NCBI GenBank assembly: GCA_965200835.1
Contig: OZ241390.1
Location: forward strand, 2,256,297-2,320,296
DNA length: 64,000 nucleotides
Direction: 5' to 3'
From: Acidimicrobiia bacterium
GTDB taxonomy: Bacteria > Actinomycetota > Acidimicrobiia > Spongiisociales > Spongiisociaceae
Position 1 is the first letter of the stretch. Each line of letters begins with the position of its first letter. Shown here one piece after another: positions 18,243 to 57,151 of the stretch. A model generated the notes under the pieces. It saw nothing but the letters and a program-made list of their open reading frames with translations. It was not told where the DNA came from and searched no databases. Both the position numbers and the translations under genes were made by a program.

Positions 18243-19732
18243 ATGCCGTATATTGACCAGCATGTTTCATCAACCAACTCTGTGGCGCTGGTCGGCGTGA
18301 AGGCGCGTGCCGTCCGCGTAGAGGCTCATGTGGGAGGAGGAGAGAAAGGCCGGCTCAATGTGGTGGGCCTGCCCGACACCGCGGTGCGAGAGGCCAAAGA
18401 CCGGGTGCTGGCAGCCATGGCGGTGTCCGGTTACCGTTTCCCGCCCCGGTCGGTCACCGTCAACCTGGCGCTGGCCGACCTGCCCAAGTCGGGAAGCGCC
18501 TACGACCTACCCATCGCCCTATCCCTGCTGGCGGCTGCAGGGATAGGGCGATCGGTGCCTGCAACGTGGTAGCCCTCGGGGAGCTGGCGCTGGACGGCAG
18601 CCTTCGCCCGGCACCCGGAGGTCTGGGGGCGGCCGTCGTGGCCGCCGAAATGGGCATACCCTGCCTGCTTCCGCCCGTTTCCGCCACCGAGGCGAGCATC
18701 GTGGGCTCGGCCAATGTCCAGATGGTGGGTTCGCTGGCCACCGCCATCGCGGCCGCACTCGGCGAGGCCGACTTTCCGCCCCCACAAGTGCCCCGCGTTG
18801 CGGAGGTCGAGCGCGCAGACCTGGCTGAGGTCAGGGGCCAGCCGCTGGCCAAGCGGGCCCTCGAGGTGGCGGCGGCCGGCGGTCACCACATGTTCCTGTC
18901 CGGTCCTCCTGGATCAGGCAAGACCATGCTGGCCCGCTGCCTGCCCGGACTGCTGCCGGATCTGGACGAGCAGGCCGCGCTGGAGGTAGCGCAGGTATGG
19001 TCGACCGCAGGCCGGCCCCGCACCTCGCTGCTCAGGCCACCCATCCGATCACCGCACCACACGGCCACCACGCCGGCGATGGTCGGCGGCGGCTCGGGGT
19101 CACCGGTTCCCGGTGAGATCAGCCTGGCACATCGGGGAGTGCTGTTCCTCGATGAGCTGGGAGAGTTCCGCCCCCACCTGCTGGACGCGCTGCGCCAGCC
19201 CCTCGAGGAGGGCGAGGTCACCATCGCCCGGAAGGGTGTCTCGGTCACCTTCCCGGCCGCCGTGCAGCTGATGGCGGCCACCAATCCCTGCCCGTGTGGG
19301 TTCCTGGGCGACTACCGCCAGGGGTGTAATTGCAGCGCCCGGATGGTCCAGCGTTACCGCCGACGGCTGTCCGGGCCGTTGATGGATCGGTTCGACATCC
19401 GGGTGATGGTCGAGCAGGTGGACGTGGACGCCTTCATCGGACCGCCGGAGGAACCCAGCCAGCCGGTAGCCGAGCGGGTGGCGGCAGCTTGGCAGGCCCA
19501 GCACGCCCGAGGGCGCCGGAATCGGGACCTGGGCCGGAGCGAGCTGGACGCCCTGGAGATGGCCAACGGTGCCAAGAAGCTGGTCGAGGGTGCTCTCCGG
19601 CACGGCTCTCTGACGGGGAGGGGATTCGACCGGGTCCGGCGGCTGTCCCGCACGGTGGCCGACCTGGCCGGCTCGGCGGCTGTGGGAGAACCACACACGG
19701 CCGAGGCGCTGGTCCTGCGAGGGGTGATATGA
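18243..19732 (+). pseudogene. comM: Mg-chelatase-like AAA+ ATPase ComM/YifB, interrupted by a frameshift near 18,545-18,572
   Basis: The N-terminal 109 aa ('..NVVGLPDTAVREAKDRV..YDLPIALSLLAAAGIG') stop at a TAG at 18570-72. The remaining ~388 aa continue in the +1 frame from a GTG at 18566 ('LGELALDGSLRP..GPPGSGKT..'). Together they equal a normal ComM length (~497 aa). Confidence 0.75.
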
Positions 19733-35783: not shown

Positions 35784-36358
35784 GCAGCCGGCGAGCAATG
35801 ATTTCTCTGAGCCTGCTGGTGGTAGCGGTACTGGTGCAGACCACCGTGTTCCACCTATGGCGCCCGTTCGGGGAGGTGCCCGAGTTGGTGCTGCTCATGG
35901 TTATCGTTTGTGCCAGATGGTTCCAGCCGGAGTCAGCAGTTCTGCTGGGCTTTACCGGAGGATTGATGGTCGATCTATTCGGGACCACACCCTTCGGTCT
36001 CCATGCCCTCGCCTATACGCTCGTGGCCTACGCTACGGTGAGGATAAGTGATAGATTCGACTACGGGCTTCACATCACAGTTCCTGCGGTTGGTGTGATC
36101 ACCTTTGTCGGGCTCAGCACCATCGCCCTGGTTGGCACTTTGTTCGGCGAGAGAACCCTCGGTTCCACGGGGATAGCACGAACCTTGATCCTGGTGCCGT
36201 TCTACAACATGCTGCTGGGCATAGTGGCACTTCCTTTGACCAACGGATTGTTCAGATCGTCGAGGCACCATGACCGTTACGGCACGCCAGCTACCAAGGG
36301 GCTGCCTCGGCCACGTCGGACTACTTCACGTGCTCCCAGGGGGTGGGGTAGGAGATGA
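35780..36358 (+). CDS. mreD: rod shape-determining protein MreD
   Basis: Polytopic ~190-aa membrane protein directly between mreC and the PBP2 gene. Confidence 0.7.
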   Translation: MSSRRAMISLSLLVVAVLVQTTVFHLWRPFGEVPELVLLMVIVCARWFQPESAVLLGFTGGLMVDLFGTTPFGLHALAYTLVAYATVRISDRFDYGLHITVPAVGVITFVGLSTIALVGTLFGERTLGSTGIARTLILVPFYNMLLGIVALPLTNGLFRSSRHHDRYGTPATKGLPRPRRTTSRAPRGWGRR

Positions 36359-38364
36359 GGTACAAGTGGCGGCTGAGCATGCTGGCACTGGTCTTCACCG
36401 CGGCTTTCTCGATACTCTTTATCAGGCTCTGGGCCGTACAGGTGGCACAGGGCGAGGAGTACGTTCTCAAAGCCGAACAGAATCAAGTGACATGGGTGAA
36501 GGTTCCTGCCCCGAGGGGGGAGATAGTGGACCGGAACGGTATCCCGCTGGCCACTTCCCGATCCCAGCTGGTGATAGAGATAGACTACGCGGGGCTCGCT
36601 CCGGATGTTCAGGAGGACGTGGTCCAGCGGCTGGCCGCCATCCTGGATGTCCCGCCCACCGACCTGAGAAGACAGGTCGAAAGCGCATATCTAAGAGAGG
36701 AGATCGAGGTAAGGGACGGTCTATATCTGGTAGTGCTCAGAGATCGTAGACGGCCAGACGCCGTAGCTGCGTTGACTCATCCAGACTTTCCCATCGATGC
36801 CGACACCGCGTATGTAGTGATGGAGCAGCGTGCCACCCTCCCAGGAGTGACGGTGAGAGCCCGGCCAGTACGTGGGTACCATCGGGGGTCTTTGATGGGC
36901 CATGTAATCGGTTACATAGGTCTACCCGGCGATAAGGATCTGGAAGAACGGCCAGCTCTCGATAGCCGCAACCCTATCGGGAAGTCGGGAGTGGAGGAAG
37001 AGTACGACGAGTTCCTTCAGGGCACGCCGGGCCAGATCGTCTACCAGATCACCCCTCAGGGCGAGATCCGTGGAGAGATCGGCTCGGATGATCCTGTTCA
37101 GGGAGCCACAGTGAGGTTGACCCTGGATATTCCAACCCAGGAAGTAGTGGAGCAGGTTCTGGTGGAGGCCATCGACCTCTCCAATGCTATCAAGGATGAA
37201 GCGTACGCTGAGCTCGATAGTCAGCCTCTGCCGACCGAGCGGGCTACAGCCGTTATCATGGAGATCGAGACTGGGGCTGTTCTCGCTATGGCCTCCTATC
37301 CAACCTATGTTCCGCAGTCGTTCGTCGGGGGGATGAGCGATGATACCTTCGAGGAACTGATCGCCAGCCAGGCTTTCAACAATCTGTCGATCCAGGCTCA
37401 AAAACCTCCGGCATCTACCTTCAAGGCGATCACCTATATCACCTCTCTCGAGGAGGGGATCTTTCCTAAGGAGGCTTCGTCGGCAGAGGAACTCATCGTG
37501 TGCTCAGCCCAACTCGACTACAGCTTCGTGGATAGATCCAAGCTGGTGTGGCGTAATTGGACCTATCCCGAAGCAGATGGACACCAAAACCTCCACGGCG
37601 CGCTCCGCCGGTCGTGCAACATCTATTTCTGGGAGATCGCCCTCTCCATCTGGGATGCATACAAGGAGACCGATCGGGAAGGAATCGTTCAGCAGTGGGC
37701 CCGGGATCTGGGCATGGGACGGCGTACCCAGGTCGACATTCCCTACGAGCGAGAAGGTCTGGTGGGGGACCGCCAGCTGTTCGAGGAGTGGCAGGAAAGC
37801 CAGCCGTGGAGAGTACGTGAAGAGGGTTGGTTGGGCGGCGATCTCATGAACCTCGTAGTTGGCCAGGGACCGATTCTGGCCACTCCGCTGCAGATGGCGG
37901 TGGCTTATGCGGCCATTCTCAACGGCGGGACCGTGTACCAGCCGCGAGTGGCCGACCGGATCGAGTCCTCGGGTGGGGAGCTGCTCAGGACGATGCCTCC
38001 GCGGGTCCTGCGCACGGTCGACATCGACCCGGAAACGGTCGAATCCCTTAGGGTCGATCTGGCGGGGGTCGTGACGGAGGGCACTGCCCGCCAGGCCTTC
38101 GACGACTCGGGGATCGAGACCGGGGTGGGCGGCAAGACCGGCACGGCTCAAGCCATCACGGAACCGGATGGGACATTTCATGACTCCACCGCCTGGTTCA
38201 TCGGTGTGGCTCCCATAACCAGCCCCCGCTGGGTAGTTGCGGTGATGGTGGATGAGGGCGGATCCGGTGGCGCGGTAGCGGCCCCGGCGGCGCGCGCCAT
38301 GATGCAGTTCTTGATGGGGGAGCCGGTCACGCCGCTGGTGGCCGGGGCGGATACCGAGAGGTAA
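36355..38364 (+). CDS. mrdA: penicillin-binding protein 2 (elongasome transpeptidase)
   Basis: N-terminal TM helix, PBP dimerisation domain, 'STFK' active-site motif ('ASTFKAITY') and 'KTGTA' ('GKTGTAQ'). Confidence 0.9.
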   Translation: MRYKWRLSMLALVFTAAFSILFIRLWAVQVAQGEEYVLKAEQNQVTWVKVPAPRGEIVDRNGIPLATSRSQLVIEIDYAGLAPDVQEDVVQRLAAILDVPPTDLRRQVESAYLREEIEVRDGLYLVVLRDRRRPDAVAALTHPDFPIDADTAYVVMEQRATLPGVTVRARPVRGYHRGSLMGHVIGYIGLPGDKDLEERPALDSRNPIGKSGVEEEYDEFLQGTPGQIVYQITPQGEIRGEIGSDDPVQGATVRLTLDIPTQEVVEQVLVEAIDLSNAIKDEAYAELDSQPLPTERATAVIMEIETGAVLAMASYPTYVPQSFVGGMSDDTFEELIASQAFNNLSIQAQKPPASTFKAITYITSLEEGIFPKEASSAEELIVCSAQLDYSFVDRSKLVWRNWTYPEADGHQNLHGALRRSCNIYFWEIALSIWDAYKETDREGIVQQWARDLGMGRRTQVDIPYEREGLVGDRQLFEEWQESQPWRVREEGWLGGDLMNLVVGQGPILATPLQMAVAYAAILNGGTVYQPRVADRIESSGGELLRTMPPRVLRTVDIDPETVESLRVDLAGVVTEGTARQAFDDSGIETGVGGKTGTAQAITEPDGTFHDSTAWFIGVAPITSPRWVVAVMVDEGGSGGAVAAPAARAMMQFLMGEPVTPLVAGADTER

Positions 38365-42394: not shown

Positions 42395-43654
42395 GTGTTC
42401 GTAGACAACGTCCGCCTTCATCTTCGCTCCGGAAACGGAGGAGCAGGTGCGGTTTCCTTCATCAAGGAGGGACGCCGCCCCAAGGGGAAGCCCTCGGGCG
42501 GTTCCGGCGGGCGCGGAGGAGAGGTGATCGTCATCGCTGATCGATGGAAGGCCACCCTGCACTCGTATCGCCGCCGCCCGCACCGTTCCGCAGGCTCCGG
42601 GACCCATGGTTCGGCGGACCAGCGGCACGGAAGGCGGGGACGGGACCTCCATCTGCCGGTACCACTGGGGACCTTGGTGTACGACGAGCAAGGCACGCTC
42701 ATGGCGGATCTGGTCGAGCATGGTCAGCGGGTGGTGGTCCTCCCCGGCGGTCGGGGAGGGCGGGGCAACGCCGCGCTCGTCTCGACCCGGAACCGGGCGC
42801 CCACTTTCTGTGAGCAGGGAGAGTACGGCGAGTCGGCCTGGTTCACGCTGGAGATGAAGCTCATGGCCGACGCTGCTCTGATCGGCTTTCCCAACGCGGG
42901 TAAGTCCACCCTCATTTCGCGGGTGTCGGCTGCTCGGCCGAAGATCGCTGATTACCCGTTCACCACCCTCGAGCCGAAGCTAGGTGTGGTGGTGATCGGT
43001 GAGCGGGAGTTCGTCCTGGCCGATGTACCGGGTCTGATCGAAGGGGCGGCCGATGGAAAGGGCCTTGGGCACGAGTTCCTGCGCCATTGCGAGCGAGCCA
43101 AGGTGCTGGTGGTGCTGCTCGATCCTTCCCCGTTGCAGACCATCCCTCCCGAGCGCCAGTATGAGATCCTCCGCCGCGAGCTGAGGTTGCATGATCCCGA
43201 GCTGGCCGAGCGCCCCCAGGTAGTAGCGGTGACCAAACGGGACCTCACCAGGGCCGATCCGATCACCGGCCCCCTCCGCCGAGCGGTTCCCAACGTGATG
43301 GCGATCAGTTCGGTTACGGGGGAGGGGATCGATCAGCTGTTGCATCAGATCGCCGATGCCGTCGATCGAGCCGATCGGGACATGCCAGGCGCTGAAGGTT
43401 TCGTCCTCCATCGGCCGGTGCGTTCGGGCTTCTCGGTGGACCGCATCGATGGGGTGTGGGTCGTCGAGGGTCGGGCTGCCGAGCGGGCGGTGGCTATCAA
43501 CGATCTGACCATCGCCGAGGCAGCCGGCCTGGCGGCTCGACGCCTGGACCGCCTCGGAGTGGACAGCGCCCTGCGGCGGGCCGGCGCGCAGGAGGGTGAT
43601 GACGTGAGGATCGGAGACCATCTGTTCGAGTACCGGAGCGCTGGAGATGGCTGA
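42395..43654 (+). CDS. obg: GTPase Obg
   Basis: Gly-rich Obg fold 'SGNGGAGAVSF' and G1 'GFPNAGKST'. Confidence 0.9.
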   Translation: MFVDNVRLHLRSGNGGAGAVSFIKEGRRPKGKPSGGSGGRGGEVIVIADRWKATLHSYRRRPHRSAGSGTHGSADQRHGRRGRDLHLPVPLGTLVYDEQGTLMADLVEHGQRVVVLPGGRGGRGNAALVSTRNRAPTFCEQGEYGESAWFTLEMKLMADAALIGFPNAGKSTLISRVSAARPKIADYPFTTLEPKLGVVVIGEREFVLADVPGLIEGAADGKGLGHEFLRHCERAKVLVVLLDPSPLQTIPPERQYEILRRELRLHDPELAERPQVVAVTKRDLTRADPITGPLRRAVPNVMAISSVTGEGIDQLLHQIADAVDRADRDMPGAEGFVLHRPVRSGFSVDRIDGVWVVEGRAAERAVAINDLTIAEAAGLAARRLDRLGVDSALRRAGAQEGDDVRIGDHLFEYRSAGDG

Positions 43655-44768
43655 GCTACCAGGCGGCGCCCGCCCCAAGCCTCTTCCCGGGACTCCCGTC
43701 GTCCTGAAGGTGGGTTCGTCGAGCCTTACCAATGCTGACGGCTCGATCGATCAGGAGGCCGTGCTCAGGGTCATCGACCAGGTCGGCACCTTCTGGAGTG
43801 CCGGTTGTCCGACCGTGCTGGTCTCGTCGGGCGCGGTGGCCGCCGGGTCACCGGCCCTGGGTGGCCGGCCGACCGAGATCACCGGCCTGCAGGTGGCAGC
43901 AGCCATCGGGCAGACCCTCCTGATGGCCCGATACAGCCAGGCGTTCACGGAAGCCGGCCGCATCATCGGGCAGGTGTTGATAACCATGGACATCCTCTCG
44001 ATGCGCTCGCAGTATCTCCATGCTCGAGGCGCTCTGCAGCGGATGCTCGACTGCGGCATCGTTCCGATCGTCAACGAGAACGACACGGTGGCGGTGGAGG
44101 GTCTGAAGATGGGCGACAACGACCGGCTGGCCGCCATCGTGTCGCATCTGATCGCCTCAGGCATGCTGGTGATCCTCACCGACACCGACGGCCTCTATTC
44201 GGCCGATCCCCGGTCCGGATCAGGCGACCGTATCCCTGTGGTCCGCCACAGCGACCCGGTCCTGGACGGGCTGGTCGTCGGCGGTGCCGGTCCGATGGGA
44301 TCGGGAGGGGTAGCCACCAAGATAGAGGCAGCCCGGATGGCCGCCTGGTCCGGAATCCCCACCGTGATCGTCCGTTCCACCCGGCCCGGTGTGATCCAGG
44401 AGATCATCGAGGGCAGGGCAACCGGAACCTATGTCCTACCCGGCCGGTCGCGACTCTCGGCCCGCAAACTCTGGCTGGCGTTCGGCCAGCAGCCGAAGGG
44501 CAGGGTAGGGATCGACGATGGTGCGGTCCGAGCACTCGTGGAACGAGGTAGCTCCCTGCTCTCGGTAGGAGTGACGGGGGTAGAGGGTGAGTTCATCCGC
44601 GGGGCGGCGGTGGAGGTCCGCGGTCCGGAAGGTGGGCTGGTAGGCAAGGGCCTGGCGAGCACCGGATCATCAGAGATGCGGCGGTGGATGGGCAAGCGAT
44701 CGGCCGAGATAGGCGCGGTAGGCGAGGTGATCCACAGGGACCAGCTGGTAGTCCTGCTCAGAGGGTGA
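43647..44768 (+). CDS. proB: glutamate 5-kinase (with PUA domain)
   Basis: 'VVLKVGSSSLT' and 'IVNENDTV' amino-acid-kinase motifs. C-terminal PUA domain. Confidence 0.9.
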   Translation: MAELPGGARPKPLPGTPVVLKVGSSSLTNADGSIDQEAVLRVIDQVGTFWSAGCPTVLVSSGAVAAGSPALGGRPTEITGLQVAAAIGQTLLMARYSQAFTEAGRIIGQVLITMDILSMRSQYLHARGALQRMLDCGIVPIVNENDTVAVEGLKMGDNDRLAAIVSHLIASGMLVILTDTDGLYSADPRSGSGDRIPVVRHSDPVLDGLVVGGAGPMGSGGVATKIEAARMAAWSGIPTVIVRSTRPGVIQEIIEGRATGTYVLPGRSRLSARKLWLAFGQQPKGRVGIDDGAVRALVERGSSLLSVGVTGVEGEFIRGAAVEVRGPEGGLVGKGLASTGSSEMRRWMGKRSAEIGAVGEVIHRDQLVVLLRG

Positions 44769-45062
44769 AACCGCGTCGGCAAGCAGTGACGGGGGCCGGA
44801 CCGCGGGGCGCCTTAGGAGCCGGAACCTGGTGCCACTGATTCTGCGCCCTGATCAGCTGTTGGCTACATTTTCCTTGCGCTGAAGCTTCGCCGGGGCCGA
44901 GAAAAGCGATACTGTGATCACTCTCACATGGTAGAGTCAGCTGGTGATTCTAGCTTTGCCAGCGGCTGATGGAACGGTGACATTACGTTGTGAAAGTAGG
45001 TTGCTTCCTTTGGAGGGGGCATTACGAGGGCCAGTATTGCTGGAAGTACGGAGCCTCCTACT

Positions 45063-46981
45063 GTGGGTGGTCTGAGTAAGTTATCTGGCCTCATATCGTT
45101 GCTTGTAGCAGTTGTCGTTGCTTACGGCTTCTCGGTCCCGCTTTTCAGCCTCTCTCCCCTTCAGGCAAAGAGCGCTGGTTCTTTTGACTTAGCCGTTTCT
45201 TACTCTTCGAGGTGTCCGAACGGCGGCCGAAGCTGACTTGCCTGATGTTGTCGGTAGCTACTGGGATGTCAATGAGGACTCAGTTCATTATTCAAGCATC
45301 TCGACTCTCACCAGCCTCGGTGTGTTTCGGGATACTGGGTGTGGGAACGACCGGTTTTGTCCCGAAGAGCCGCTTCTACGTTGGGTGATGGCTGTTTGGT
45401 TAATTCGGATGCTCTATGAGGAGCCTTCGGATGCTGGTAATACTTTCTACGATGTAGATGATTGGGAATGGTGGGCAGGGCAGGTGGTTCGTCTTGGTGA
45501 GGTGGGTGTAACTTCGGGTTGTAGCGCCGATCCTCCGTACTTTTGTCCTGACTATGCGGTCACTCGTGCTCAGATGGCTACGTTTCTGACTCGCGCATTC
45601 CGGCTCGATCCGGTAGCTTCTAGTGGGTTCGCTGACGTTGACCTAACGATGCACACGCTGACGGCATCGGTGCGTTGGCCGCTTCGGGTGTCACTGCCGG
45701 ATGTCGGACTGATCCTCCCAGGTTCTGTCCCAACCAGGCCGTGACTCGTGCTCAGATGGCTACGTTTCTGGCACAGGTCCTCAACCTCTCACCCATAGCC
45801 GACCAAGACCACGGTCGGGATAGTGCTCCTGACGACATTGTTGCTTACGGTGAGGTTAATGGGCGGATAGCCGCTGGTCTTTATCACTCTTGTGCCATCG
45901 GTCTCGACGACACGATAACCTGTTGGGGTTCTGATTATTCTGGTAAGACAGATACTCCTGTCGGTAAGTATAAGTAGGTTTCGGCCGGTGTTAGTCATTC
46001 GTGCGCTATCGACTTTGACGACACGATAACCTGTTGGGGTTTGATAGCTCTGGTGAGACAGATGCTCCTGTCGGTAAGTATAAGTAGGTTTCGGCCGGTG
46101 TTAGTCATTCGTGTGCTATCGGTTTTGACGACACGATAACCTGTTGGGGTTCTGACCATAATCTTGATGTTGATATTGGTGTTGGGGCCCTTGATGCTCC
46201 CCACGGTAAGTTTAGGCAGATAGTCACTTATAACCTTCATTCCTGTGCAGTCACCTTGGGTGGAACGATCCGATACTGGGGCAACAGATTTCGTGCTCGG
46301 GATGGTAAATATCGGCAGGTAACCGTCGGGAACGGGCATGCGTGTGCGATCACTCTGAGCGATACGATCGTCTGCTGGGGCGCGGACCGCTATGGTCAGC
46401 TTGAGGCTCCTGACGGTACGTTTGTGCAGATAGCCACTGGTGAGCATCATTCGTGTGCTATCACTGTAAAAGATGCGTTTGTCTGTTGGGGCCGTAACCG
46501 TTATGGCGAGACTAATGCCCCAGGCAGTGAACCCATAAGCAGTGTTCCTACGGTGACACTATTCGACATTACTGATGAACAAGACCGTGATCTACGTTCA
46601 TATTTGGACGGTGATAAGCATTTGATGCTGTGGTTCTTCGCACCGTGGTGACCGTCTTGTCGGGCTATGGCGCCCGTTGTTGAGCAGTTTGCTCAACAGT
46701 ACTTGAGTGAGGTGAAGGTTATCGTGGTTGGCAGCCAAGCTAGTTTGGAACGTGTTAAGACCGGTCTTGACGACCTCGACCTCGGCGTTGACAGCATTCC
46801 CGTATGGGACTCCGGAAACACTTTGTGGGGTATCTGGCCTCCAGCCAACAACCACCCACAGTTTGGCTCCTTTAGTAACAACTCCCGCTATGTGGTGTTT
46901 CGGCCCGATGGCTCTCTTCTGGACGGCGGCGTCTGGAACTGCCCAAGCTGCTCATCTCCTCCTTGGACACCCGAAGGGTAG
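45063..46981 (+). pseudogene. Decayed gene for a protein with a signal peptide, three SLH domains, an RCC1-like beta-propeller repeat array and a TlpA-like thioredoxin-fold domain
   Basis: Signal peptide 'LSKLSGLISLLVAVVVAYG..LQA'. SLH motifs '..AVTRAQMATFL..'. About six 37-aa repeats 'G(K/T)(Y/F)xQ(V/I)..GxxHSCAI..DxTIxCWG'. Redoxin 'WFFAPW[TGA]PSC'. There are at least three frame changes, two in-frame TAGs (45975-77 and 46085-87) and one in-frame TGA (46649-51). Confidence 0.6.
45868..46097 (+). repeat. Near-identical 110/111-bp tandem direct repeat, about two copies, inside the RCC1 array. Each copy ends in '..GGTAAGTATAAGTAG'.
   Basis: Copies at 45868-45977 and 45978-46087. They differ by a few substitutions and a 1-nt deletion. 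Both carry TAG where the repeat consensus has CAG (Gln). Confidence 0.7.
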
Positions 46982-47237
46982 CTTTAGCAATATGATGCGT
47001 GTGGTAGCAGTTTTGAACACATTTGTTTGGGGCTACTTTGTGTGGGGATACTGGTTGGTTGGCGTGTTGGTGTTCACGACAGGCATCTGTAGGGTTAACC
47101 ACGATCTGGCTCTTGGGTTTATCCGTAGAGTATGGCAAATTCAGTTTCATAAACAAGGTTCCGCGGGATAGGCTGGAGTCCTTAGAGGAACCGGCCTAGG
47201 TGGCTTTACATAAGCGAAATGGGAAATAGGGGTAGTT

Positions 47238-47876
47238 GTGATAGCGCGGACAAAAGTCTTGTTACTGGTAGTTGGGGCCGCCTCTGTGGTAGTTGGATTG
47301 GCTATTTGTTCCGGATCCTGACCGGCCGGACGAGGAGCCTGATGTTGAACCGAGAGCTATAATATATTCCGGAGTCGGAGGAACCAGATTCCCCGGATGT
47401 TGTCGTTCCAGAGCCAGAGGAACCTGACCCCCCGGTGGAGGTTGACAGGCCGGACCTCGAGGTTGATTATGTCCAGGTAGCCGCCGGTCACTAGCATGAG
47501 TGTGCGGTCACCTCAGGCGGGTACATTGAGTGCTGGGGCGGCGACGAGTACGGGGAGGTGTCGGGGGCGCCAACCGACCGCGGTTATATCCAGGTCTCCC
47601 CAGGGGCCGGGCATGAGTGTGCGGTCACCGCCGACGGGTACATTGAGTGCTGGGGCTATGACTACTACGGGCAGGTGTCGGGGGCGCCGACGGGTGGCGG
47701 TGATATTCAAGTCTCAGCCGGTTGGGAGCATGTATGTGCGATCAGATCAGGCGACGAGTACATTGAGTGCTGGGGCAGCGACAGGTGGTAGTGGCGCAGC
47801 TGGATATCTTGAGGGGTTCAACTGCGGCGTTGTGTCGGATTGGGGGTTTTCGTGTGTGATTACAGGCAATCCTTAG
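47238..47876 (+). pseudogene. Second decayed RCC1-repeat protein with a lipoprotein-type signal and an Asp/Glu/Pro-rich linker
   Basis: 'VIARTKVLLLVVGAASVVVGLAICSGS'. 'EPDPPVEVDRPDLEVD' linker. Repeats 'GxxHECAVTxxGYIECWGxDxYGQVSGAP'. Frameshifts and an in-frame TAG at 47492-94. Confidence 0.5.
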
Positions 47877-48777
47877 GTTGCGGGGTTGCCGGTCGGATGT
47901 GATTCGGGTGTGTTCGGCCGTGAAGGGTGGTGGGGTGTGCCGATCGTCTCTCTGGAGTTCTCCTGAGGTGGTTCAGGTAGTTCATGTTGGCGTTTGGGCC
48001 GTTGACGGTTGTGTGATAGCTTTTGGGAGCGAGCGCCAGGTCGCCATGGTGAACAACCTTTGAGTGTTCGTAGTTTTTGTTTTCACGTCGGTTGCGGTGC
48101 AGCGCGTAACCGTCGGGTCGATTCAGACAGAAGTAGTAGGTCTGTCTTCCAGTTAGGGCGAGCCCTGGCGCCCGTCATGGGAATGGGGCGGCCACGCAGC
48201 CGATGTGCGTCTTGGGATACACACCTCATAGAGAGTCAGGTGCTCGGCCGGCCGTGGGTACGCCATTGAGTGCACCCGCTGGCGGGGCGCCTGGCCACCG
48301 CCGCGAGTCGCGATCTTCGTCTCGTGCGCTCGAACAGCACACGTTTTGGGTAGCGGCCCTCAGTCGGTGTGGAGCCAGACGTTGCCACAAGCCGGTGATC
48401 AGATTCGACCACGAATGGTGTGGCTGGCGGAATGTAGACCACGTAACCCATATGATCGAACACCGAGCTACTGCTTGTCGGCTCCAGTTTGGGTGCCGTC
48501 GAAGACCCAGTCGGTTGAGACCAGGATCAGCTTCGCACCGACTTGTTCGCTGCCTTCGCGAGCACCCGGAAGCGCACCGGCAGAAGTCCTTTCAAGACTC
48601 ACGCTAGCCTCCGGGGCATCTGCCATCAGACTTGTCACGGTGCCGCTTCAATCCAATCACATGATCTTGACCGCGTCTGAGGTCGCTGAGAGGCCAGCGT
48701 CAGCCGGTATTTACGGTGCCTGCCGTAGAAGGAGAATCTTTGGAGATTGCTCGGCTGAAGTAGTCAGGAGACTAAGC

Positions 48778-49059
48778 ATGATCTCGGTTGATCTATCTAC
48801 AGTCCGTTGGCTATTGCCGGTTGTGGCGCTTGCTGTTGTTGCCCTAATCGGCTGCGGCGCCGACCCCGAACCGCCCGCGGCCACCGACACCGCAGAGCAA
48901 GAACCCATGTACGAGGCTGCCGACATGCCAGGGGAACAACCCGAAGCCACGGACACATCCGAAGAAGAAGCCGCTTCAACCGTGGACACTCCCAACACCG
49001 CCGACGGCGCATATATGCAGGTTTCGTCCAGGTTATGGTCCGGCCCGTTATTATGGTGA
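48778..49059 (+). CDS. small acidic lipoprotein (hypothetical)
   Basis: AGGAG Shine-Dalgarno 8 nt upstream of the ATG. Signal peptide plus lipobox 'VVALIGCG'. Asp/Glu/Thr-rich mature part. Confidence 0.45.
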   Translation: MISVDLSTVRWLLPVVALAVVALIGCGADPEPPAATDTAEQEPMYEAADMPGEQPEATDTSEEEAASTVDTPNTADGAYMQVSSRLWSGPLLW

Positions 49060-49219
49060 TAGTAACTATATGTATGCGGCGGTCGGTACGGGTGCGGGTG
49101 ATGGTACTTTGGCACAGTGGAAGTTTGTTGCATTGTAGTTGATGATGACTTTGATATTGAGGTGTTTGTTCCTTATAATCATGGTTCTGCACGGGTTATG
49201 TATAGGATTCGGTCTTTGA

Positions 49220-49816
49220 ATGATATTGGTGGTTGGGATGAGCGGCGGTGTTCGGATGTTGGAGCAGGTTAAACTGTCGGGGTGGTCTCGTTTGGGGGAT
49301 TCTTTATATGTTGATGGTAGTGAGTCGGTGCCTCGGTCTTTGGTGATTCAGGTTCACTATTCGGACTCGCAGTATGCGGAGGGGTTTCCGGTTGATCCTC
49401 TTTATCGAATGATGGGTGTGGATGCCGTCAGGATACGGTGTTCTTCCTGTGGTGGTGAGGATGAGGAGCCTGTGGATGAGGAGCCTCCGTCTCGGCCGCG
49501 GAATATGAGGCTGGTGCGGCAGGACAGTCCCCGCTCGGGGTATAGGTATCAGTATGTTATTAGTGTTGACCCGCCGGCCGATAGTGGTGGTGGTCCGGTG
49601 ACGGGTTATAGGTTTACGTTTGCCCGTGCTGGGCGTGGTGGTTCTTTTGTTAGGAGTGTCCCTAGGATTATTCTCCTTACGAAGTCAGCGACTAGATATA
49701 CCGTTTCGTTTTCGGCTGTTAATGAGTTTGGTACTAGTGATCCGATTACGCCGGCGTTTTACTACGCCTCGGTCTGTGACGGAACCGTCCGTGCCGACAC
49801 CTGGTCGACCGCTTAA
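49220..49816 (+). CDS. fibronectin type-III domain protein, N-terminal part
   Basis: FN3 signature 'PSRPRNMRLV..GYRYQYVISVDPP..VTGYRFTF..TRYTVSFSAVNEFGTSDP'. Overlaps the next ORF in another frame. This may be a frameshifted single gene. Confidence 0.45.
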   Translation: MILVVGMSGGVRMLEQVKLSGWSRLGDSLYVDGSESVPRSLVIQVHYSDSQYAEGFPVDPLYRMMGVDAVRIRCSSCGGEDEEPVDEEPPSRPRNMRLVRQDSPRSGYRYQYVISVDPPADSGGGPVTGYRFTFARAGRGGSFVRSVPRIILLTKSATRYTVSFSAVNEFGTSDPITPAFYYASVCDGTVRADTWSTA

Positions 49817-50837
49817 TCTTAAGGTTACGGTTGGGATTATGGATGCTGAAAGTCGGCGACTGCCTGTTACGTTGACTTGGAGTCGGCCATCTGGGTCCGG
49901 TGGTCGTGATGTTGATCACTATAAATTGCAGATTGTGGATGCGGGCGGTAGACGAGTGCAGGAGTGGACACCGAGGGAGATTAGGCATCCGGCCTATTTG
50001 TATCCGGATGTGTCAGGTAGTTATAAGGTTACAGTGTCGGCAGTGAACCGCGGCAGTGGCCGCAGTGTGATTGGTCCGTCTGTGAGTAAGCAGTTTACTC
50101 TGTCGGCCTGTCCGTATGATAAGCGGCTACTGACATCGAGGAATAGGCAGGTATCTGCTCGAAGGTTCCCTGTGGTTGATGTGAGTCGGCAGGTTTATAT
50201 TCAGGCTCGTCAAAAAAGCGGAGAGCTGCATGACCGTAAATTGATTCGTGGTGCTATAGGCAGCTGGGGTTGTGCCTGGGTTGGCTATGGGGCGGAGCTT
50301 AACAATAGAAGCTTTGTGAGGGATGACGCACTTGTTACTGGGCGTGCAATCGTCAAAGACGATGCGACAGTGTCGAATGGTGCTCTTGTTTCGGGTAATG
50401 CAGAGGTCAGCGGTCGAGCACAAGTTTATCAGGGCGCCAGGATAATAGGCAACAATCTTGGCAGGGATAAAGCGAGAGTTTACGATGATGCTCGAGTGTA
50501 TTGCAATGCCAAGATATCAGAAAATGCTACAGTTTACGGTCATGCTGAAGTGTATGGAGCAGCACAGGTTTATGGCGACGCGGATGTTCGCGGGGACGCT
50601 AGGGTGTATGGTAATGCTAAGGTTTACGGTGCCTTGACTATTGTAGAAGGTAACGCCCAGGTCTATGGGAACGCCGAAGTTTATGGTACGGACACAGAAA
50701 GTGTGAGGCGTTTGGAGACCGAGACTCGTATACGGGGCAATGCTGAAGGTCACGGAGAGGCTGTGGTCTTTGGCAAAGAGACGATCATTGAAGGCAGCGC
50801 CAAAGTTTATGGCGACGCGAGGCTTGGTAGCAGATAA
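49620..50837 (+). CDS. Protein with a second FN3 domain followed by about 25 tandem hexapeptide 'A-x-V-Y-G-x' repeats (beta-solenoid-like). The real start is probably an internal GTG near 49776, or the gene is frameshift-fused to the preceding ORF.
   Basis: 'PGRPLNLKVTV..LTWSRPSGSGGRDVDHYKLQI..SYKVTVSAVNRGSGRS' FN3, then 'GNAEVSGRAQVYQGARIIGN..ARVYGNAKVYGALTIVEGNAQVYGNAEVYG'. Confidence 0.5.
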   Translation: MPVLGVVVLLLGVSLGLFSLRSQRLDIPFRFRLLMSLVLVIRLRRRFTTPRSVTEPSVPTPGRPLNLKVTVGIMDAESRRLPVTLTWSRPSGSGGRDVDHYKLQIVDAGGRRVQEWTPREIRHPAYLYPDVSGSYKVTVSAVNRGSGRSVIGPSVSKQFTLSACPYDKRLLTSRNRQVSARRFPVVDVSRQVYIQARQKSGELHDRKLIRGAIGSWGCAWVGYGAELNNRSFVRDDALVTGRAIVKDDATVSNGALVSGNAEVSGRAQVYQGARIIGNNLGRDKARVYDDARVYCNAKISENATVYGHAEVYGAAQVYGDADVRGDARVYGNAKVYGALTIVEGNAQVYGNAEVYGTDTESVRRLETETRIRGNAEGHGEAVVFGKETIIEGSAKVYGDARLGSR

Positions 50838-50891
50838 GAACCCCTTGTTATCGATGAGCCTCATTATGATGGCAAACAGGAATTCGAATGG

Positions 50892-51345
50892 ATGGCCAAG
50901 GAAGCATACAACGTGGCCTACCGTCAAGCTAGGGACTATTTATCGGATTGCTTCCCCAAATTGTGGGCAACTATGAAGCAGGAAGATAAACATGACACAA
51001 TCCGGGTCGGCTTGGGTGAACCGTGGTCAAATACACGCGCACTCCCTGAGGAGATTCTCAAAATGGCGTGTGATAATTTCGAGTTCGCCGAAACGGATCA
51101 GGGAAATGGTGAACCCATGGATGGCCAGTTTTGGTTTTGTGGCACCATTTCTGAAAGCGGGTAAGCTCACAGGATACTTGAAGCTGATAAGGGACGGGAT
51201 CATACTCGCCTACGACGCAAAGAACGTGTGGGACAACATGAACCTGCTCACAGCCTTGACAGAAGCAAAAGGTATGATGATGAAGAACACCTTCGAACAA
51301 TGCCGTAAGGCATCAGAGGCATCAGAGCCATTCAAAGACTGCTAA
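50892..51345 (+). CDS. Hypothetical low-GC ORF(s): two overlapping frames (50892..51164 and 50992..51345) with no recognisable domain
   Basis: AT-rich codon usage typical of the island. No homology recognised. Possibly one frameshifted gene. Confidence 0.25.
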
Positions 51346-52466
51346 ACAGGCAGGCATGAAGAACACAGAAATCCGACACTACAACACGCCGATCATACTA
51401 TTCACCATAGTTTAGGCAAACCATCACCCAATGGCAGTTGACATTAGGCAGCCGGGCACCCTTGCCCTAGACGAAAACAGCGCCTACCGCGGTTACCACA
51501 AAGCAGACCGGGAAGACTGACACGCCGAACCTGCCATCGTCAAAGCGTCCGGCGACAGAAAGCAGACACCTGGCAATCCCTCTAGACAACACCATCACCC
51601 TGCTTAGGGAAAGAATGCTTCGCGGGTGGTAAGGGGTGGCCGAGCGGTGCACCACCGGCTATCCGATCACCCCGCAACCGATGGTCAGGACCAATGACGG
51701 CGGATCAGCCAGGCCGTCCGCCACTCGGGGTAGGTGGCGGAAGTGACGATGGTGGGTACCTTCGCTAGCCCGGAGGCAACAATCACCGCGCTGATCATAT
51801 AGCTGAAACGGGGAGCATCGCGCCGGGGACGGGTTGAGAATAAACGGGAGGCGGATTTCGGGTGCCGATCACTCACAGCTTCTGGTTCTGATGCCCGTCT
51901 CCGGAACTCGCCCCGCTGAGAACAGTGACTCGGCTCCGGCTATGGCAGACGGAACGGCGAAGATGATCAGATGGTCCGTGCCGTGACGGACGTCACACCC
52001 GAGGGAACGAACGCCCGATCACCTGGGACGATTCCCGCCATCACCGGCCCTGACGGAGGGGCAGATCCTTCAGAGTCGGTCTCACCGTCCTGGGAACCGG
52101 CTGGAACTTCGAGCTTGATCACTTCGGAGTTGGTATCGGAGAAGGTGGCTACCGAACGCAGGTTTGCCTCTCCTCACGAAGCGGAGGATCTGTGCCGCCG
52201 TCGCCAGGCTCGGTGAGACGGTTGTGCATGTTTGGCTGACCTCGTTGCGATCCGAGCGGTGACGCGGAGGCTATCCGGGGTAGTTCAGGGGGTTCCGAAC
52301 CTCCGGCAATGGGGTGCACACCCCGGAACGCCCCGCTGGTTGTCCCTTGGCAGACGCATTTCCGGCGGATACATTGGCCTTACGACCGGATCCGGCGCTG
52401 CGCGATGCCGGTGCGGGTCGTGGATGGCGAGCATTGGCTGCGCGGCGGGAGGCAGGAGGTGTCCTC

Positions 52467-52994
52467 ATGTGCGGTATCCGTCCGTCTCTGTCCGTCCTGG
52501 TGGTGGCTCTCGCCTTGGTGTCCGGTGCCCTTCCGGCCTCGGTGATGGCCGAGCCCACCAAGCTGGGCTCGTCGTGCGTCGGTCTCGATGCGCCGAGTGA
52601 TGGGGTGGTGGCCAACCATTTCGAGCCCGGACCGAACTATTCGGGCCACTGGGGGATCGACTACGTCGGTGACACCGACGGTTACGCCCGTGCGGCGGCC
52701 GGAGGACGGGTCACCTTCGCCGGAATGGTGGCTGACAACCTGGTGGTGACGGTCGATCATGGGGGAGGGCTCAGGACCAGTTACTCGTACCTGGCGGAAG
52801 CCATGGCAGAGGTGGGTACGACCGTGGCCCGAGGGACGGTGATCGGTCGGATCGGTTCGGGGCGCCACCACGATGGTCTCCACTTCTCCACGCGCATCGA
52901 TGGTGTCTACCTCGATCCGCTGACCATCCTGGGATGCCGGCTCGGCCCCCCTTCTGCAGGTCTCCGCCTGGTGCCCGCGCCCGCCGACCGTTAG
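52467..52994 (+). CDS. secreted M23-family peptidase
   Basis: Signal peptide 'MCGIRPSLSVLVVALALVSGALPASVMA'. 'HWGIDY..VDHGGGLRTSYSYL..HLHF' M23 motifs. The ATG at 52467 was chosen; the longer ORF begins at 52314. Confidence 0.75.
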   Translation: MCGIRPSLSVLVVALALVSGALPASVMAEPTKLGSSCVGLDAPSDGVVANHFEPGPNYSGHWGIDYVGDTDGYARAAAGGRVTFAGMVADNLVVTVDHGGGLRTSYSYLAEAMAEVGTTVARGTVIGRIGSGRHHDGLHFSTRIDGVYLDPLTILGCRLGPPSAGLRLVPAPADR

Positions 52995-53700: not shown

Positions 53701-54113
53701 GCATCCAAGAACGCCGAGCAAGCGCCTCAGCCATCCGGATCCCTACCGAGGACTTGGCTGTGTTTGCCGCCGACGCCGTCGATGCCAAGCGCGGGACCGA
53801 GGTAGTCATCCTGGAGGTCGGGGAGCTCCTCGGGATCGCCGACCTGTTCGTTATCGCCACCGGCAACACCAAGAGGCAGGTACGGACGCTGGCGGAGGCG
53901 GTCAAGGAGGCTATCAAGAGCCACGGGAGGTCCCCGCTGCGAGTGGAGGGTATGGATGTGGCCGAGTGGGTACTGGTGGATTACGGTGACCTGGTTGTTC
54001 ACATCTTCCAACCCAAGGTGCGCGACCTCTACTCGTTGGAGCGGCTATGGGGAGACGCTCCCCGAGTGCCGTGGACGGGTGGTGCCGGCGCTCATCCTTC
54101 CGGAGGGTCCTGA
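53697..54113 (+). CDS. rsfS: ribosomal silencing factor RsfS (Iojap)
   Basis: 'ILEVGELLGIADLFVIATGNTKRQVR..DYGDLVVHIF'. GTGA overlap with nadD. Confidence 0.85.
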   Translation: MSIQERRASASAIRIPTEDLAVFAADAVDAKRGTEVVILEVGELLGIADLFVIATGNTKRQVRTLAEAVKEAIKSHGRSPLRVEGMDVAEWVLVDYGDLVVHIFQPKVRDLYSLERLWGDAPRVPWTGGAGAHPSGGS

Positions 54114-54206
54114 GTTTACCCGGCCTGGTGCGACAACCAAGTCCTGCGAGGTTGGTAGGCTACATAGTCGGTACCGGTCCGGTTACAGGAATCAGTACCA
54201 GTCCAC

Positions 54207-54279
54207 GGGGCTGTAGCTCAGCTGGCAGAGCGCTTGCATGGCATGCAAGAGGTCACGGGTTCAAATCCCGTCAGCTCCA
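54207..54279 (+). tRNA. tRNA-Ala (anticodon GGC) with the G3:U70 identity pair
   Basis: Acceptor GGGGCTG/CAGCTCC gives G3-U70. Anticodon stem CTTGC/GCAAG with loop ATGGCAT. Confidence 0.85.
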
Positions 54280-54415
54280 CCGAGCCTATATGTTGGGCCC
54301 CGTCCGGACTTCATCCCAGCGTGGTTCGAGGTCCTGGGTGGGACACCGGGGGCTGGTCACCGCGAGGTTGTCCTTCGTTCTAACAGGTATCCAGCGTGCG
54401 AATAGGATCACGGCT

Positions 54416-57151
<2,736 letters not shown>

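What the first reader, a model, noticed from the sequence alone, without database searches (positions are those of the whole stretch)
44769..52300. A low-GC island of decaying foreign surface-protein genes sits exactly where proA should be
Base composition falls from about 66% to about 50% GC at the proB stop codon (44768). It stays low for about 6.6 kb, then recovers before the M23 peptidase and nadD genes. In most bacteria, including the obg-proB-proA-nadD-rsfS arrangement common in actinobacteria, proA lies in this slot. Here no proA-like frame could be found by eye. The island instead carries genes for large extracellular proteins (SLH, RCC1 propeller, TlpA redoxin, FN3, hexapeptide repeats), all broken by frameshifts or stops. 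No integrase, tRNA attachment site or inverted repeats are visible, so the route of entry is not obvious. The island looks like an old acquisition that is now eroding. That an S-layer-type (SLH) anchoring system is present at all is unexpected for this host type.
Basis: partly seen in the sequence, partly recalled or inferred. Interest (0 to 1): 0.7.

Follow-up and report, generated by a model that had tools for sequence, protein, structure and literature searches.

The report
Degraded foreign surface-protein genes replacing trkH–trkA
In a sponge-associated actinobacterium, about 6.8 kb of compositionally foreign DNA carrying broken cell-surface protein genes has replaced most of a potassium-uptake gene pair (not proA), which is an ordinary example of gene gain, deletion and decay in a symbiont genome.

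Summary
GC falls from about 0.65 to 0.49-0.56 right after the proB stop, at z = -4 to -6. It stays low in two blocks (44.9-47.3 kb and 48.9-51.5 kb) separated by a block of about 0.60. The genes there are broken SLH/RCC1/thioredoxin and FN3/beta-solenoid genes, with no integrase, adjacent tRNA or terminal repeats.

Two parts of the interpretation fail. The host is a sponge-associated Acidimicrobiia (Ca. Spongiisociaceae). In 13 of 17 relatives the proB-M23 slot holds trkH and trkA, and in the 12 closer ones it holds no proA. The window still keeps a trkH N-terminal relic and a trkA C-terminal relic at the island's right edge. The island therefore displaced trkHA.

SLH-RCC1 proteins are also not unexpected here. 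They are a large accessory family in these very genomes, often next to IS elements.

The low GC was imported, not produced by local decay. The native trk relics are still 61-62% GC, and the T-rich codon usage arose while the genes were under selection.

Each large gene carries only a handful of lesions, far fewer per codon than the trkH relic. One "stop", a TGA in the CxxC motif, is probably a selenocysteine codon.

Overall this is ordinary, of low to moderate interest.

The parts
43647..44768 (+). proB (glutamate 5-kinase), intact; left boundary of the island
   Evidence: 67-76% aa identity to proB of 16 sponge-associated Acidimicrobiia (56% to the distant L017). In L031 the identical gene hits AA_kinase+PUA.
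44769..45062 (.). Left junction, non-coding. GC starts to fall here. No homology to the proB-trkH spacer or the trkH 3' end of relatives.
45063..46981 (+). Pseudogene a: signal/TM segment, 2 SLH repeats, RCC1 beta-propeller repeats and a thioredoxin-fold domain (about 640 codons). It is spread over 4 frame segments (45063-45236, 45232-45654, 45654-46040, 46037-46981). It carries TAG stops at 45975 and 46085. GC is 0.52-0.55; T at 4-fold sites is 0.44.
   Evidence: Pfam RCC1_2 5e-33, SLH 5e-7, Thioredoxin 3e-6. Frame map from homologs P0001/P0003/P0012. Stops listed. Best homologs are 45-53% identical.
45926..46145 (+). Tandem duplication of a 110-nt RCC1 unit (91% identical). 110 is not a multiple of 3, so it creates a frameshift. 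Both copies carry the same TAG.
   Evidence: family D1
46649..46651 (+). In-frame TGA at the first Cys position of the redox motif (W-TGA-P-S-C). Probably an ancestral selenocysteine codon rather than a lesion.
   Evidence: The same TGA occurs at the same position in the only other family member (L030 1285-1287, W-TGA-P-R-C). The frame continues with 56/111 identical residues. Two hairpins downstream are conserved, with no synonymous change in the stems.
47363..47791 (+). Fragment b: acidic/Pro-rich linker plus 3 RCC1 repeats (117-nt period), with an internal TAG at 47492 and no start. GC 0.62, GC3 0.70, closer to host usage.
   Evidence: (D3)
47953..48144 (-). Fragment of a KduI/IolB-family gene (profile positions 185-248 of 262)
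   Evidence: Pfam PF04962, E = 4.8e-7, 29.8 bits
48468..48638 (-). Possible fragment of an RmlD/NAD-dependent epimerase-type gene (weak match)
   Evidence: Pfam PF04321, E = 0.021, below cut-off. ORF translation contains 'LILVSTDWVFDG'.
48778..51164 (+). Pseudogene c-d-e: lipoprotein-type signal peptide, FN3 domains, YdcK-type beta-solenoid and a C-terminal domain of unknown family (about 800 codons). It lies in 3 frames (48778-, 49031-, 49761-) with an internal TAA at 50835. GC is 0.49-0.54 downstream of the 0.60-GC signal-peptide segment; T at 4-fold sites is 0.38.
   Evidence: Pfam B_solenoid_ydck 1e-8, fn3 9e-6. Homologs P0138, P0165, P0136 and P0141 align across the frame changes and through the stop at 50835. 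PHROG matches of unknown function.
51165..51537 (.). A-rich tract (A 0.34, GC 0.50) with no recognisable gene
51538..51876 (-). Relic of trkH, residues 1-116 of about 501, with 4 in-frame stops. GC 0.61. The other roughly 385 codons are gone.
   Evidence: BLASTP to L002 TrkH, 35% identity, E = 1e-11. tblastn with L016 TrkH, E = 6.5e-10. Translation. TrkH identity of the relatives' gene: Pfam 1e-67.
51914..52235 (-). Relic of trkA, residues about 339-441 of 443, with indels. GC 0.618 against 0.655 in relatives. The N-terminal roughly 338 codons are deleted.
   Evidence: blastn 67-72% identity to 12 relatives. Indels, GC and substitution spectrum. TrkA_N/TrkA_C in the relatives' gene.
52314..52994 (+). 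M23 peptidase gene; right boundary, host composition
   Evidence: Pfam Peptidase_M23 7e-15. Syntenic in relatives.

Best explanation
The tract is a non-functional remnant of horizontally acquired accessory DNA, sitting in a variable locus of a sponge-associated Acidimicrobiia (Ca. Spongiisociaceae) chromosome.

Ancestral state (shown by synteny): proB(+), trkH(-), trkA(-), M23 peptidase(+), nadD, rsfS.

What happened (inferred): DNA carrying surface-protein genes was inserted into trkH, and deletions then followed. The donor had about 50% GC and a T-preferring, A-avoiding codon usage. About 385 codons of trkH and about 338 codons of trkA were lost, together with whatever mobility genes brought the DNA in.

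What remains:
- two large genes: an SLH-anchored RCC1 propeller fused to a probably selenocysteine-containing thioredoxin fold, and a lipoprotein with FN3 domains and a beta-solenoid;
- an RCC1 fragment, and fragments of sugar-metabolism genes at intermediate GC.

The large genes stayed under selection for a long time. They were then inactivated fairly recently by a few frameshifts, one 110-nt tandem duplication and a few nonsense codons. Nothing in the tract is expected to function now.
For: Host and synteny:
- trkH and trkA lie between proB and M23 in 13 of 17 relatives.
- The locus is variable in others. L003 and L005 have a DNA methylase and an IS630-type transposase there.

Relics of trkH and trkA sit in the right order and orientation at the island's right edge.

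Foreign composition:
- GC z-scores are -4 to -6 and tetranucleotide distance is more than 2x background.
- Dinucleotide odds differ, with TA at 0.92-0.97 against about 0.6 in the host.
- 4-fold sites are T 0.38-0.44, C 0.19-0.23 and A 0.10, against host T about 0.10 and C about 0.42.

The composition predates inactivation:
- 46 Gln codons (CAG/CAA) are retained against 9 TAG/TAA, although roughly 60% of third-position C is 'replaced' by T.
- Long open stretches persist: a 405-aa ORF, and a 315-codon stretch with 2 internal stops (one the probable Sec codon).
- The native trk relics are at least as degraded per codon, yet still 61-62% GC against 65.5% in orthologues.

The gene families are typical accessory genes of this lineage, next to IS110/IS3/ISL3/IS21 in relatives. 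No homologue exceeds about 50% identity over the SLH/RCC1 and FN3/beta-solenoid parts; the only closer match is the thioredoxin domain (63% over 35 aa, about 54% over the whole domain, to L030).

The nearest relative of the thioredoxin domain (L030, GC 0.60) also shows raised T and low A at 4-fold sites.

An 8,622-bp ENA contig is 100% identical across obg-proB-island.
Against: - No donor, integrase, transposase, att site or terminal repeats were found, so the route of entry is inferred only by analogy with IS-flanked family members in relatives.
- The middle block (47.3-48.9 kb, GC about 0.60) may be native DNA moved by rearrangement rather than imported.
- The extreme T-over-A asymmetry at synonymous sites is unusual for a generic mid-GC donor and is not fully explained.
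- The identical ENA contig may derive from the same reads, so it is not proven to be independent.
- The order of events (insertion before or after the deletions) cannot be reconstructed from one genome.
Confidence: 0.8

Rival explanations
1. Native DNA that lost GC in place. After the genes were inactivated, the universal GC-to-AT mutation bias, with a C-to-T excess on the leading strand, drove a host-type 65% GC segment down to 50%.
For: On the + strand C falls from 0.30 to 0.23 and T rises from 0.18 to 0.25, while G and A barely change. GC skew is positive and AT skew negative, as expected for a leading strand. The trkA relic shows GC>AT 21 against AT>GC 12.
Against: - The native trk relics have more stops per codon than the island genes yet lost only about 4 GC points.
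- The T enrichment is about 3 times stronger at third positions than at first and second positions.
- Gln codons are largely spared: 46 retained against 9 TAG/TAA.
- Segments b and c, lying between the T-rich genes, have normal T3.
- The tract at 51.2-51.5 kb has the opposite skew.
Confidence: 0.05
2. Assembly or sequencing artefact. Either a chimeric join with DNA of another organism, or indel errors at low coverage produce false frameshifts.
For: The identical ENA contig is labelled 2x coverage. One other gene in the window, ComM-like near 18560, is also split by a frameshift.
Against: - The foreign tract is flanked on both sides by syntenic host DNA, proB on the left and the trkH/trkA relics, M23 and nadD on the right. 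That requires two precise joins.
- The lesions include nonsense substitutions, a 110-nt duplication and kilobase deletions, not only 1-nt indels.
- About 57 kb of flanking genes are intact apart from one case.
- A second contig is 100% identical over 8.6 kb.
Confidence: 0.04
3. A store of silent, promoterless cassettes of surface-protein genes. These would be used as donors for gene conversion into an expressed SLH/RCC1 locus elsewhere, giving antigenic or surface variation.
For: The tract contains truncated and frameshifted copies of a large, variable surface-protein family, clustered on one strand.
Against: - There is no similar expressed copy in the 64-kb window.
- The best database homologues are only 45-53% identical.
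- The tract contains unrelated fragments (IolB, RmlD-like, trk relics), typical of junk rather than of an ordered cassette array.
- The only repeats are the internal RCC1 units.
Confidence: 0.03
4. Strand-specific cytosine deamination of these particular genes, enzymatic or from repeated single-stranded exposure such as transfer or heavy transcription. Selection would have purged the damaging changes, which would explain T-rich but A-poor synonymous sites.
For: At 4-fold sites T is 0.38-0.44 while A stays at 0.10 as in the host. Purine-ending codons keep the host-like G preference, with A/(A+G) at 0.25-0.34. Family members in other genomes show strong skews of either polarity at synonymous sites.
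Against: - There is no dinucleotide context signature; all odds ratios are 0.87-1.26.
- The closest relative's contig (L030) shows the same tendency in neighbouring genes, so it looks like a lineage-wide codon usage.
- Adjacent segments of the island are unaffected.
Confidence: 0.05

Closest known systems
Degraded genomic islands (islets) and pseudogene clusters in host-associated bacteria
   Same: Atypical composition, insertion relative to syntenic relatives, disruption of resident genes, and accessory surface-protein cargo now inactivated.
   Different: No integrase, tRNA target, direct repeats or IS remnants survive. The tract is a mosaic of at least three compositional classes.
SLH-domain / RCC1-repeat secreted proteins of sponge-associated Acidimicrobiia (for example P0007, P0032, P0089)
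   Same: Same domain order (N-terminal SLH repeats followed by RCC1_2 repeats). Encoded in the accessory, IS-rich parts of related genomes.
   Different: The island copy is at most 45-53% identical to any of them. It has 52% GC instead of 61-68%, carries an extra C-terminal thioredoxin fold, and is frameshifted.
Thioredoxin-fold selenoproteins with a U-x-x-C redox motif (known from marine metagenomes; own knowledge)
   Same: In-frame TGA at the first Cys position of the CxxC motif, conserved in a 54%-identical homologue, followed by conserved hairpins at +11 and +30 nt.
   Different: Fused to SLH cell-wall anchoring repeats, and here also to an RCC1 propeller. Only two sequences are known. No Sec machinery could be checked. 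The window copy is broken upstream.
proBA operon / obg-proB-proA-nadD-rsfS arrangement
   Same: obg, proB, nadD and rsfS are present in that order.
   Different: proA is absent from the window and from +/-10 kb of proB in 16 relatives. trkH-trkA occupy the slot in this family.

Membership tests
Horizontally acquired genomic island | Base composition and oligonucleotide signature differ from the host | tested here: met
   GC z = -4 to -6. Tetranucleotide distance 0.04 against 0.018 +/- 0.003. Different dinucleotide odds and codon usage.
Horizontally acquired genomic island | Absent from the same locus in related genomes | tested here: met
   No island-like sequence was found in any of the 17 proB loci. 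13 have trkH-trkA between proB and M23.
Horizontally acquired genomic island | Mobility genes, tRNA target or flanking direct repeats | tested here: not met
   No integrase or transposase domain in six frames, no adjacent tRNA, no terminal repeats.
Pseudogene | Homology to intact proteins continues across frame changes or stop codons | tested here: met
   tblastn of P0001, P0003, P0012, P0138, P0165 and P0141 maps onto 3-4 frames per gene and runs through the stop at 50835. The trk relics have stops and indels.
proBA operon | A gamma-glutamyl phosphate reductase gene (Aldedh family, about 420 aa) next to proB | tested here: not met
   ProA of L017 finds nothing in the window (best E = 0.97) or in the other loci. 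No Aldedh hit in six frames of the island or in candidate ORFs.
SLH-domain protein | Match to Pfam PF00395 above the gathering score | tested here: met
   30.0 bits against a cut-off of 20.8, E = 5e-7 on the stitched frame. Homologues carry PF00395.
Bacterial selenoprotein | In-frame TGA aligned with Cys or Sec of homologues, with conserved coding sequence downstream | tested here: met
   Window 46649 and L030 1285 both read W-TGA-P-x-C. Downstream, 56/111 residues are identical. Only one independent homologue exists.
Bacterial selenoprotein | SECIS hairpin shortly downstream of the TGA | tested here: inconclusive
   Two hairpins are conserved in both sequences, with 8 of 8 third-codon stem positions unchanged. 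There is no covariation, the single-sequence fold z-score is only -1.2, and there is no Rfam match.
Bacterial selenoprotein | selA, selB, selD and tRNA-Sec in the genome | not testable with these tools
   Only 64 kb is available, and it contains no tRNA-Sec.
Trk potassium uptake system | Intact trkH and trkA | tested here: not met
   Only residues 1-116 of TrkH (with 4 stops) and about 339-441 of TrkA (with indels) remain.

The most novel reading that the evidence does not exclude
The thioredoxin-fold domain of pseudogene a and its one homologue (L030) may define a small family of cell-wall-anchored (SLH) extracellular selenoproteins with a W-U-P-x-C redox centre in sponge-associated bacteria. 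On that reading, the TGA at 46649 is a conserved selenocysteine codon served by a conserved downstream hairpin. It would imply that the donor, and perhaps this host, decodes Sec.
Probability: 0.5. Interest if true: 0.4.

Novelty: new member of a known kind. Interest (0 to 1): 0.25.

Why it matters
The finding corrects an attractive but wrong reading. Nothing has happened to proline biosynthesis at this locus; a potassium transporter gene pair was lost instead.

It is a clean, datable example of accessory surface-protein genes being gained, kept for a time and then discarded in a sponge symbiont. The resident trk relics serve as an internal clock and as a control on composition.

The practical lesson for annotation is that the expected neighbour of a gene should be taken from close relatives, not from textbook operons.

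Two by-products may deserve separate attention: a probable SLH-anchored selenoprotein, and an odd T-rich, A-poor codon usage.

Tried and rejected
- Pfam on all six frames of the island for Aldedh/proA, integrase and transposase: none found.
- tblastn of island fragments against the rest of the window and 17 related loci for paralogues or orthologues: none found.
- Two protein searches of the 5.8-billion-protein collection for genes a and d: no homologue above about 50% identity, so no donor was identified.
- Scans of viral and JGI metagenome contigs with gene d: only 35-42% relatives.
- PHROGs: only unknown-function repeat matches to the beta-solenoid, so no case for a prophage.
- Rfam at gathering and at E <= 1: nothing in the island.
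- Dinucleotide-context test for a deaminase or methyl-cytosine signature: none.
- Alignment of the left junction to the proB-trkH spacer of relatives: no homology.
- Literature search for the host family and for pseudogenes in sponge Acidimicrobiia: nothing specific.
- The word-indexed search for the thioredoxin domain returned only the window's own ORFs. The exhaustive search, by my mistake run with the 35 residues before the TGA rather than the part after it, nevertheless found the informative homologue.


Full report
**Observation.** The compositional break is real and sharp.
- Outside 44769-52313 the 500-bp GC averages 0.654 (sd 0.027). Inside it averages 0.543, with a minimum of 0.490.
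- The tract is not uniform. Two blocks at 0.49-0.55 (about 44.9-47.3 kb and 48.9-51.5 kb, z = -4 to -6) flank a block at 0.58-0.61 (47.3-48.9 kb). The last 0.8 kb before the M23 gene is about 0.61.
- Strand-symmetric tetranucleotide distance to the window mean is 0.032-0.045 in the tract, against 0.018 +/- 0.003 elsewhere.
- On the + strand the change is almost wholly C (0.30 to 0.23) into T (0.18 to 0.25).

**Host and ancestral state.**
- A pattern scan with ProB returned 17 loci. All are Acidimicrobiia metagenome-assembled genomes, several named Ca. Spongiisociaceae or Spongiisocius, at 56-76% identity.
- obg, proB, the M23 peptidase gene, nadD, rsfS and a large downstream gene are syntenic in 12 of them.
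- In those 12 the 3.2 kb between proB and M23 holds two minus-strand genes of about 500 and 443 aa. Pfam identifies them as TrkH (1e-67) and TrkA (TrkA_N 2e-46, TrkA_C 5e-23).
- L003 and L005 instead carry a DNA methylase and an IS630-type transposase there, so the site is variable.
- Only the most distant relative, L017, has an Aldedh-family, ProA-sized gene in the interval, and it lies after trkH.
- That ProA finds nothing in the 64-kb window (best E = 0.97) or in the other loci.

**Relics.**
- The window keeps TrkH residues 1-116 on the minus strand at 51538-51876. The match is 35% identical to L002 TrkH (E = 1e-11) and contains 4 in-frame stops.
- It keeps TrkA residues about 339-441 at 51914-52235. 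This is 67-72% identical in nucleotides to 12 relatives and contains indels.
- Homology to trkA stops at about 52240, about 75 bp before the M23 reading frame. About 1 kb of trkA is therefore deleted.
- The remaining roughly 1.2 kb of trkH is missing on the other side. No homology to the trkH 3' end remains next to proB.
- The island therefore replaced trkHA, not proA.

**Contents of the tract.**
- Gene a (45063-46981, + strand) is a signal/TM segment, two SLH repeats, RCC1 repeats and a thioredoxin fold. Pfam gives RCC1_2 5e-33, SLH 5e-7 and Thioredoxin 3e-6.
- Homologues map gene a onto frames 1, 3 and 2 in succession.
- Gene a's lesions are these:
  - a break after the signal segment;
  - a frameshift near 45650;
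  - a Gln-position TAG (GKYK*VSAG, where sister repeats have GKFRQ/GKYRQ);
  - a 110-nt tandem duplication that copies the TAG and shifts the frame.
- Fragment b (47363-47791) is a linker plus three RCC1 repeats with host-like GC3 of 0.70.
- On the minus strand lie a KduI/IolB fragment (E = 4.8e-7) and a weak RmlD-like fragment.
- Gene c-d-e (48778-51164, + strand) is a lipoprotein-type signal, FN3 domains, a YdcK-type beta-solenoid and an unknown C-terminal domain.
- P0138, P0165, P0136 and P0141 align across two frame changes in gene c-d-e and through the TAA at 50835.
- 51165-51537 is A-rich and unassigned.

**Foreign origin or decay in place?** Four results favour import.
1. Third positions and 4-fold sites of genes a and d are T 0.38-0.44, C 0.19-0.23, G 0.22-0.32 and A 0.10. 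Every host gene in the window is T 0.08-0.13 and C about 0.42.
2. The shift is about three times weaker at first and second codon positions. In addition, 46 CAG/CAA codons survive against 9 TAG/TAA. The shift therefore accumulated while selection was removing damaging changes, before inactivation.
3. The native trk relics act as an internal control. They are more degraded per codon (4 stops in 117 codons, against roughly 0.3-0.5 per 100 codons in genes a and c-d-e). Yet they are still 61-62% GC, against 65.5% in orthologues.
4. Segments b and c, lying between the T-rich genes, are not T-rich. A regional mutational process is therefore excluded.

The same comparison implies that trk was disrupted long before genes a and c-d-e were inactivated.

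**Donor and family.**
- SLH+RCC1 proteins number in the hundreds in the protein collection.
There they are flanked by IS110, IS3, ISL3 and IS21 transposases.
- An SLH anchor is therefore normal for this lineage.
- These relatives' genes are 61-68% GC, and none is more than 45-53% identical to gene a. Gene c-d-e has no relative above about 36-48% over part of its length.
- The donor therefore remains unknown.
- The contig with the closest thioredoxin-domain relative (L030, GC 0.60) also has raised T and low A at 4-fold sites. This suggests that a lineage with that codon habit exists in such communities.

**Artefact check.**
- An 8,622-bp ENA contig is 100% identical to window 42881-51502.
- The tract is bounded by syntenic host DNA on both sides.
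- The lesions include substitutions, a duplication and kilobase deletions.
- One further split gene, ComM-like near 18560, shows that broken genes also occur elsewhere in this genome.

**By-product.**
- The TGA at 46649 occupies the first Cys position of the redox motif.
- An exhaustive search found one homologue whose predicted protein ends at exactly the same Trp.
- Its DNA reads W-TGA-P-R-C, and the frame continues with 56/111 identical residues.
- Two hairpins at +11 and +30 nt are conserved, with no synonymous change in their stems. Elsewhere, 45% of identical residues use different codons.
- This points to a selenocysteine codon. With two sequences there is no covariation, and the Sec machinery cannot be checked.

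**Verdict.** This is an ordinary, well-explained case of a degraded foreign islet that displaced trkHA in a sponge symbiont. The proA and 'unexpected SLH' arguments do not.

Noticed in passing
window 46649-46651 and L030 1285-1287: There is a conserved in-frame TGA at the first Cys of the thioredoxin CxxC motif (W-TGA-P-x-C) in both known members of an SLH-linked thioredoxin family. The frame continues downstream and the hairpins there are conserved. This is probably selenocysteine.
   Followed up: partly
window 18243-19732: A ComM/YifB-like (Mg-chelatase-type) gene is split into two ORFs (18243-18572 and 18566-19732) by a frameshift near 18560. This is a broken gene outside the island, either a pseudogene or a rare consensus error.
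   Followed up: no
window 45232-46981 and 49220-51164; L030; L021 6001-8649: Synonymous sites are T-rich but A-poor (T4 0.38-0.44, A4 0.10). Weaker versions occur in L030 genes (T4 0.26-0.32) and in P0089 (0.27). Other family members (P0001, P0007) show the mirror image, C- and A-rich. The cause is unexplained.
   Followed up: partly
window 54207-54281: A tRNA-Ala(GGC) gene lies inside the mechanical 1034-aa ORF 54047-57151. Homology to relatives starts at about residue 110, so the true start of that gene is downstream of the tRNA.
   Followed up: no
L017 12958-14217: In the most distant relative, an Aldedh-family gene of 420 aa (ProA-like) lies between trkH and the M23 gene. proA may therefore have left this interval in the ancestor of the closer relatives.
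   Followed up: partly
L003 11555-13797 and L005 11689-12603: Two relatives carry an N6/N4 DNA methylase, and L003 also an IS630-type DDE_3 transposase, directly downstream of proB in place of trkHA. The site is recurrently rearranged.
   Followed up: partly
window 36001-38000: There is a second, milder GC dip (0.59) and tetranucleotide outlier over the 669-aa ORF 36355-38364 (function not tested). The gene is intact with GC3 of 0.71.
   Followed up: no
L021 13862-14649: A relative's genome carries a 50% GC gene for an SLH/CAP/leucine-rich-repeat protein with plant-like LRRs. Low-GC surface or 'eukaryote-like' genes therefore also occur in sister genomes.
   Followed up: no
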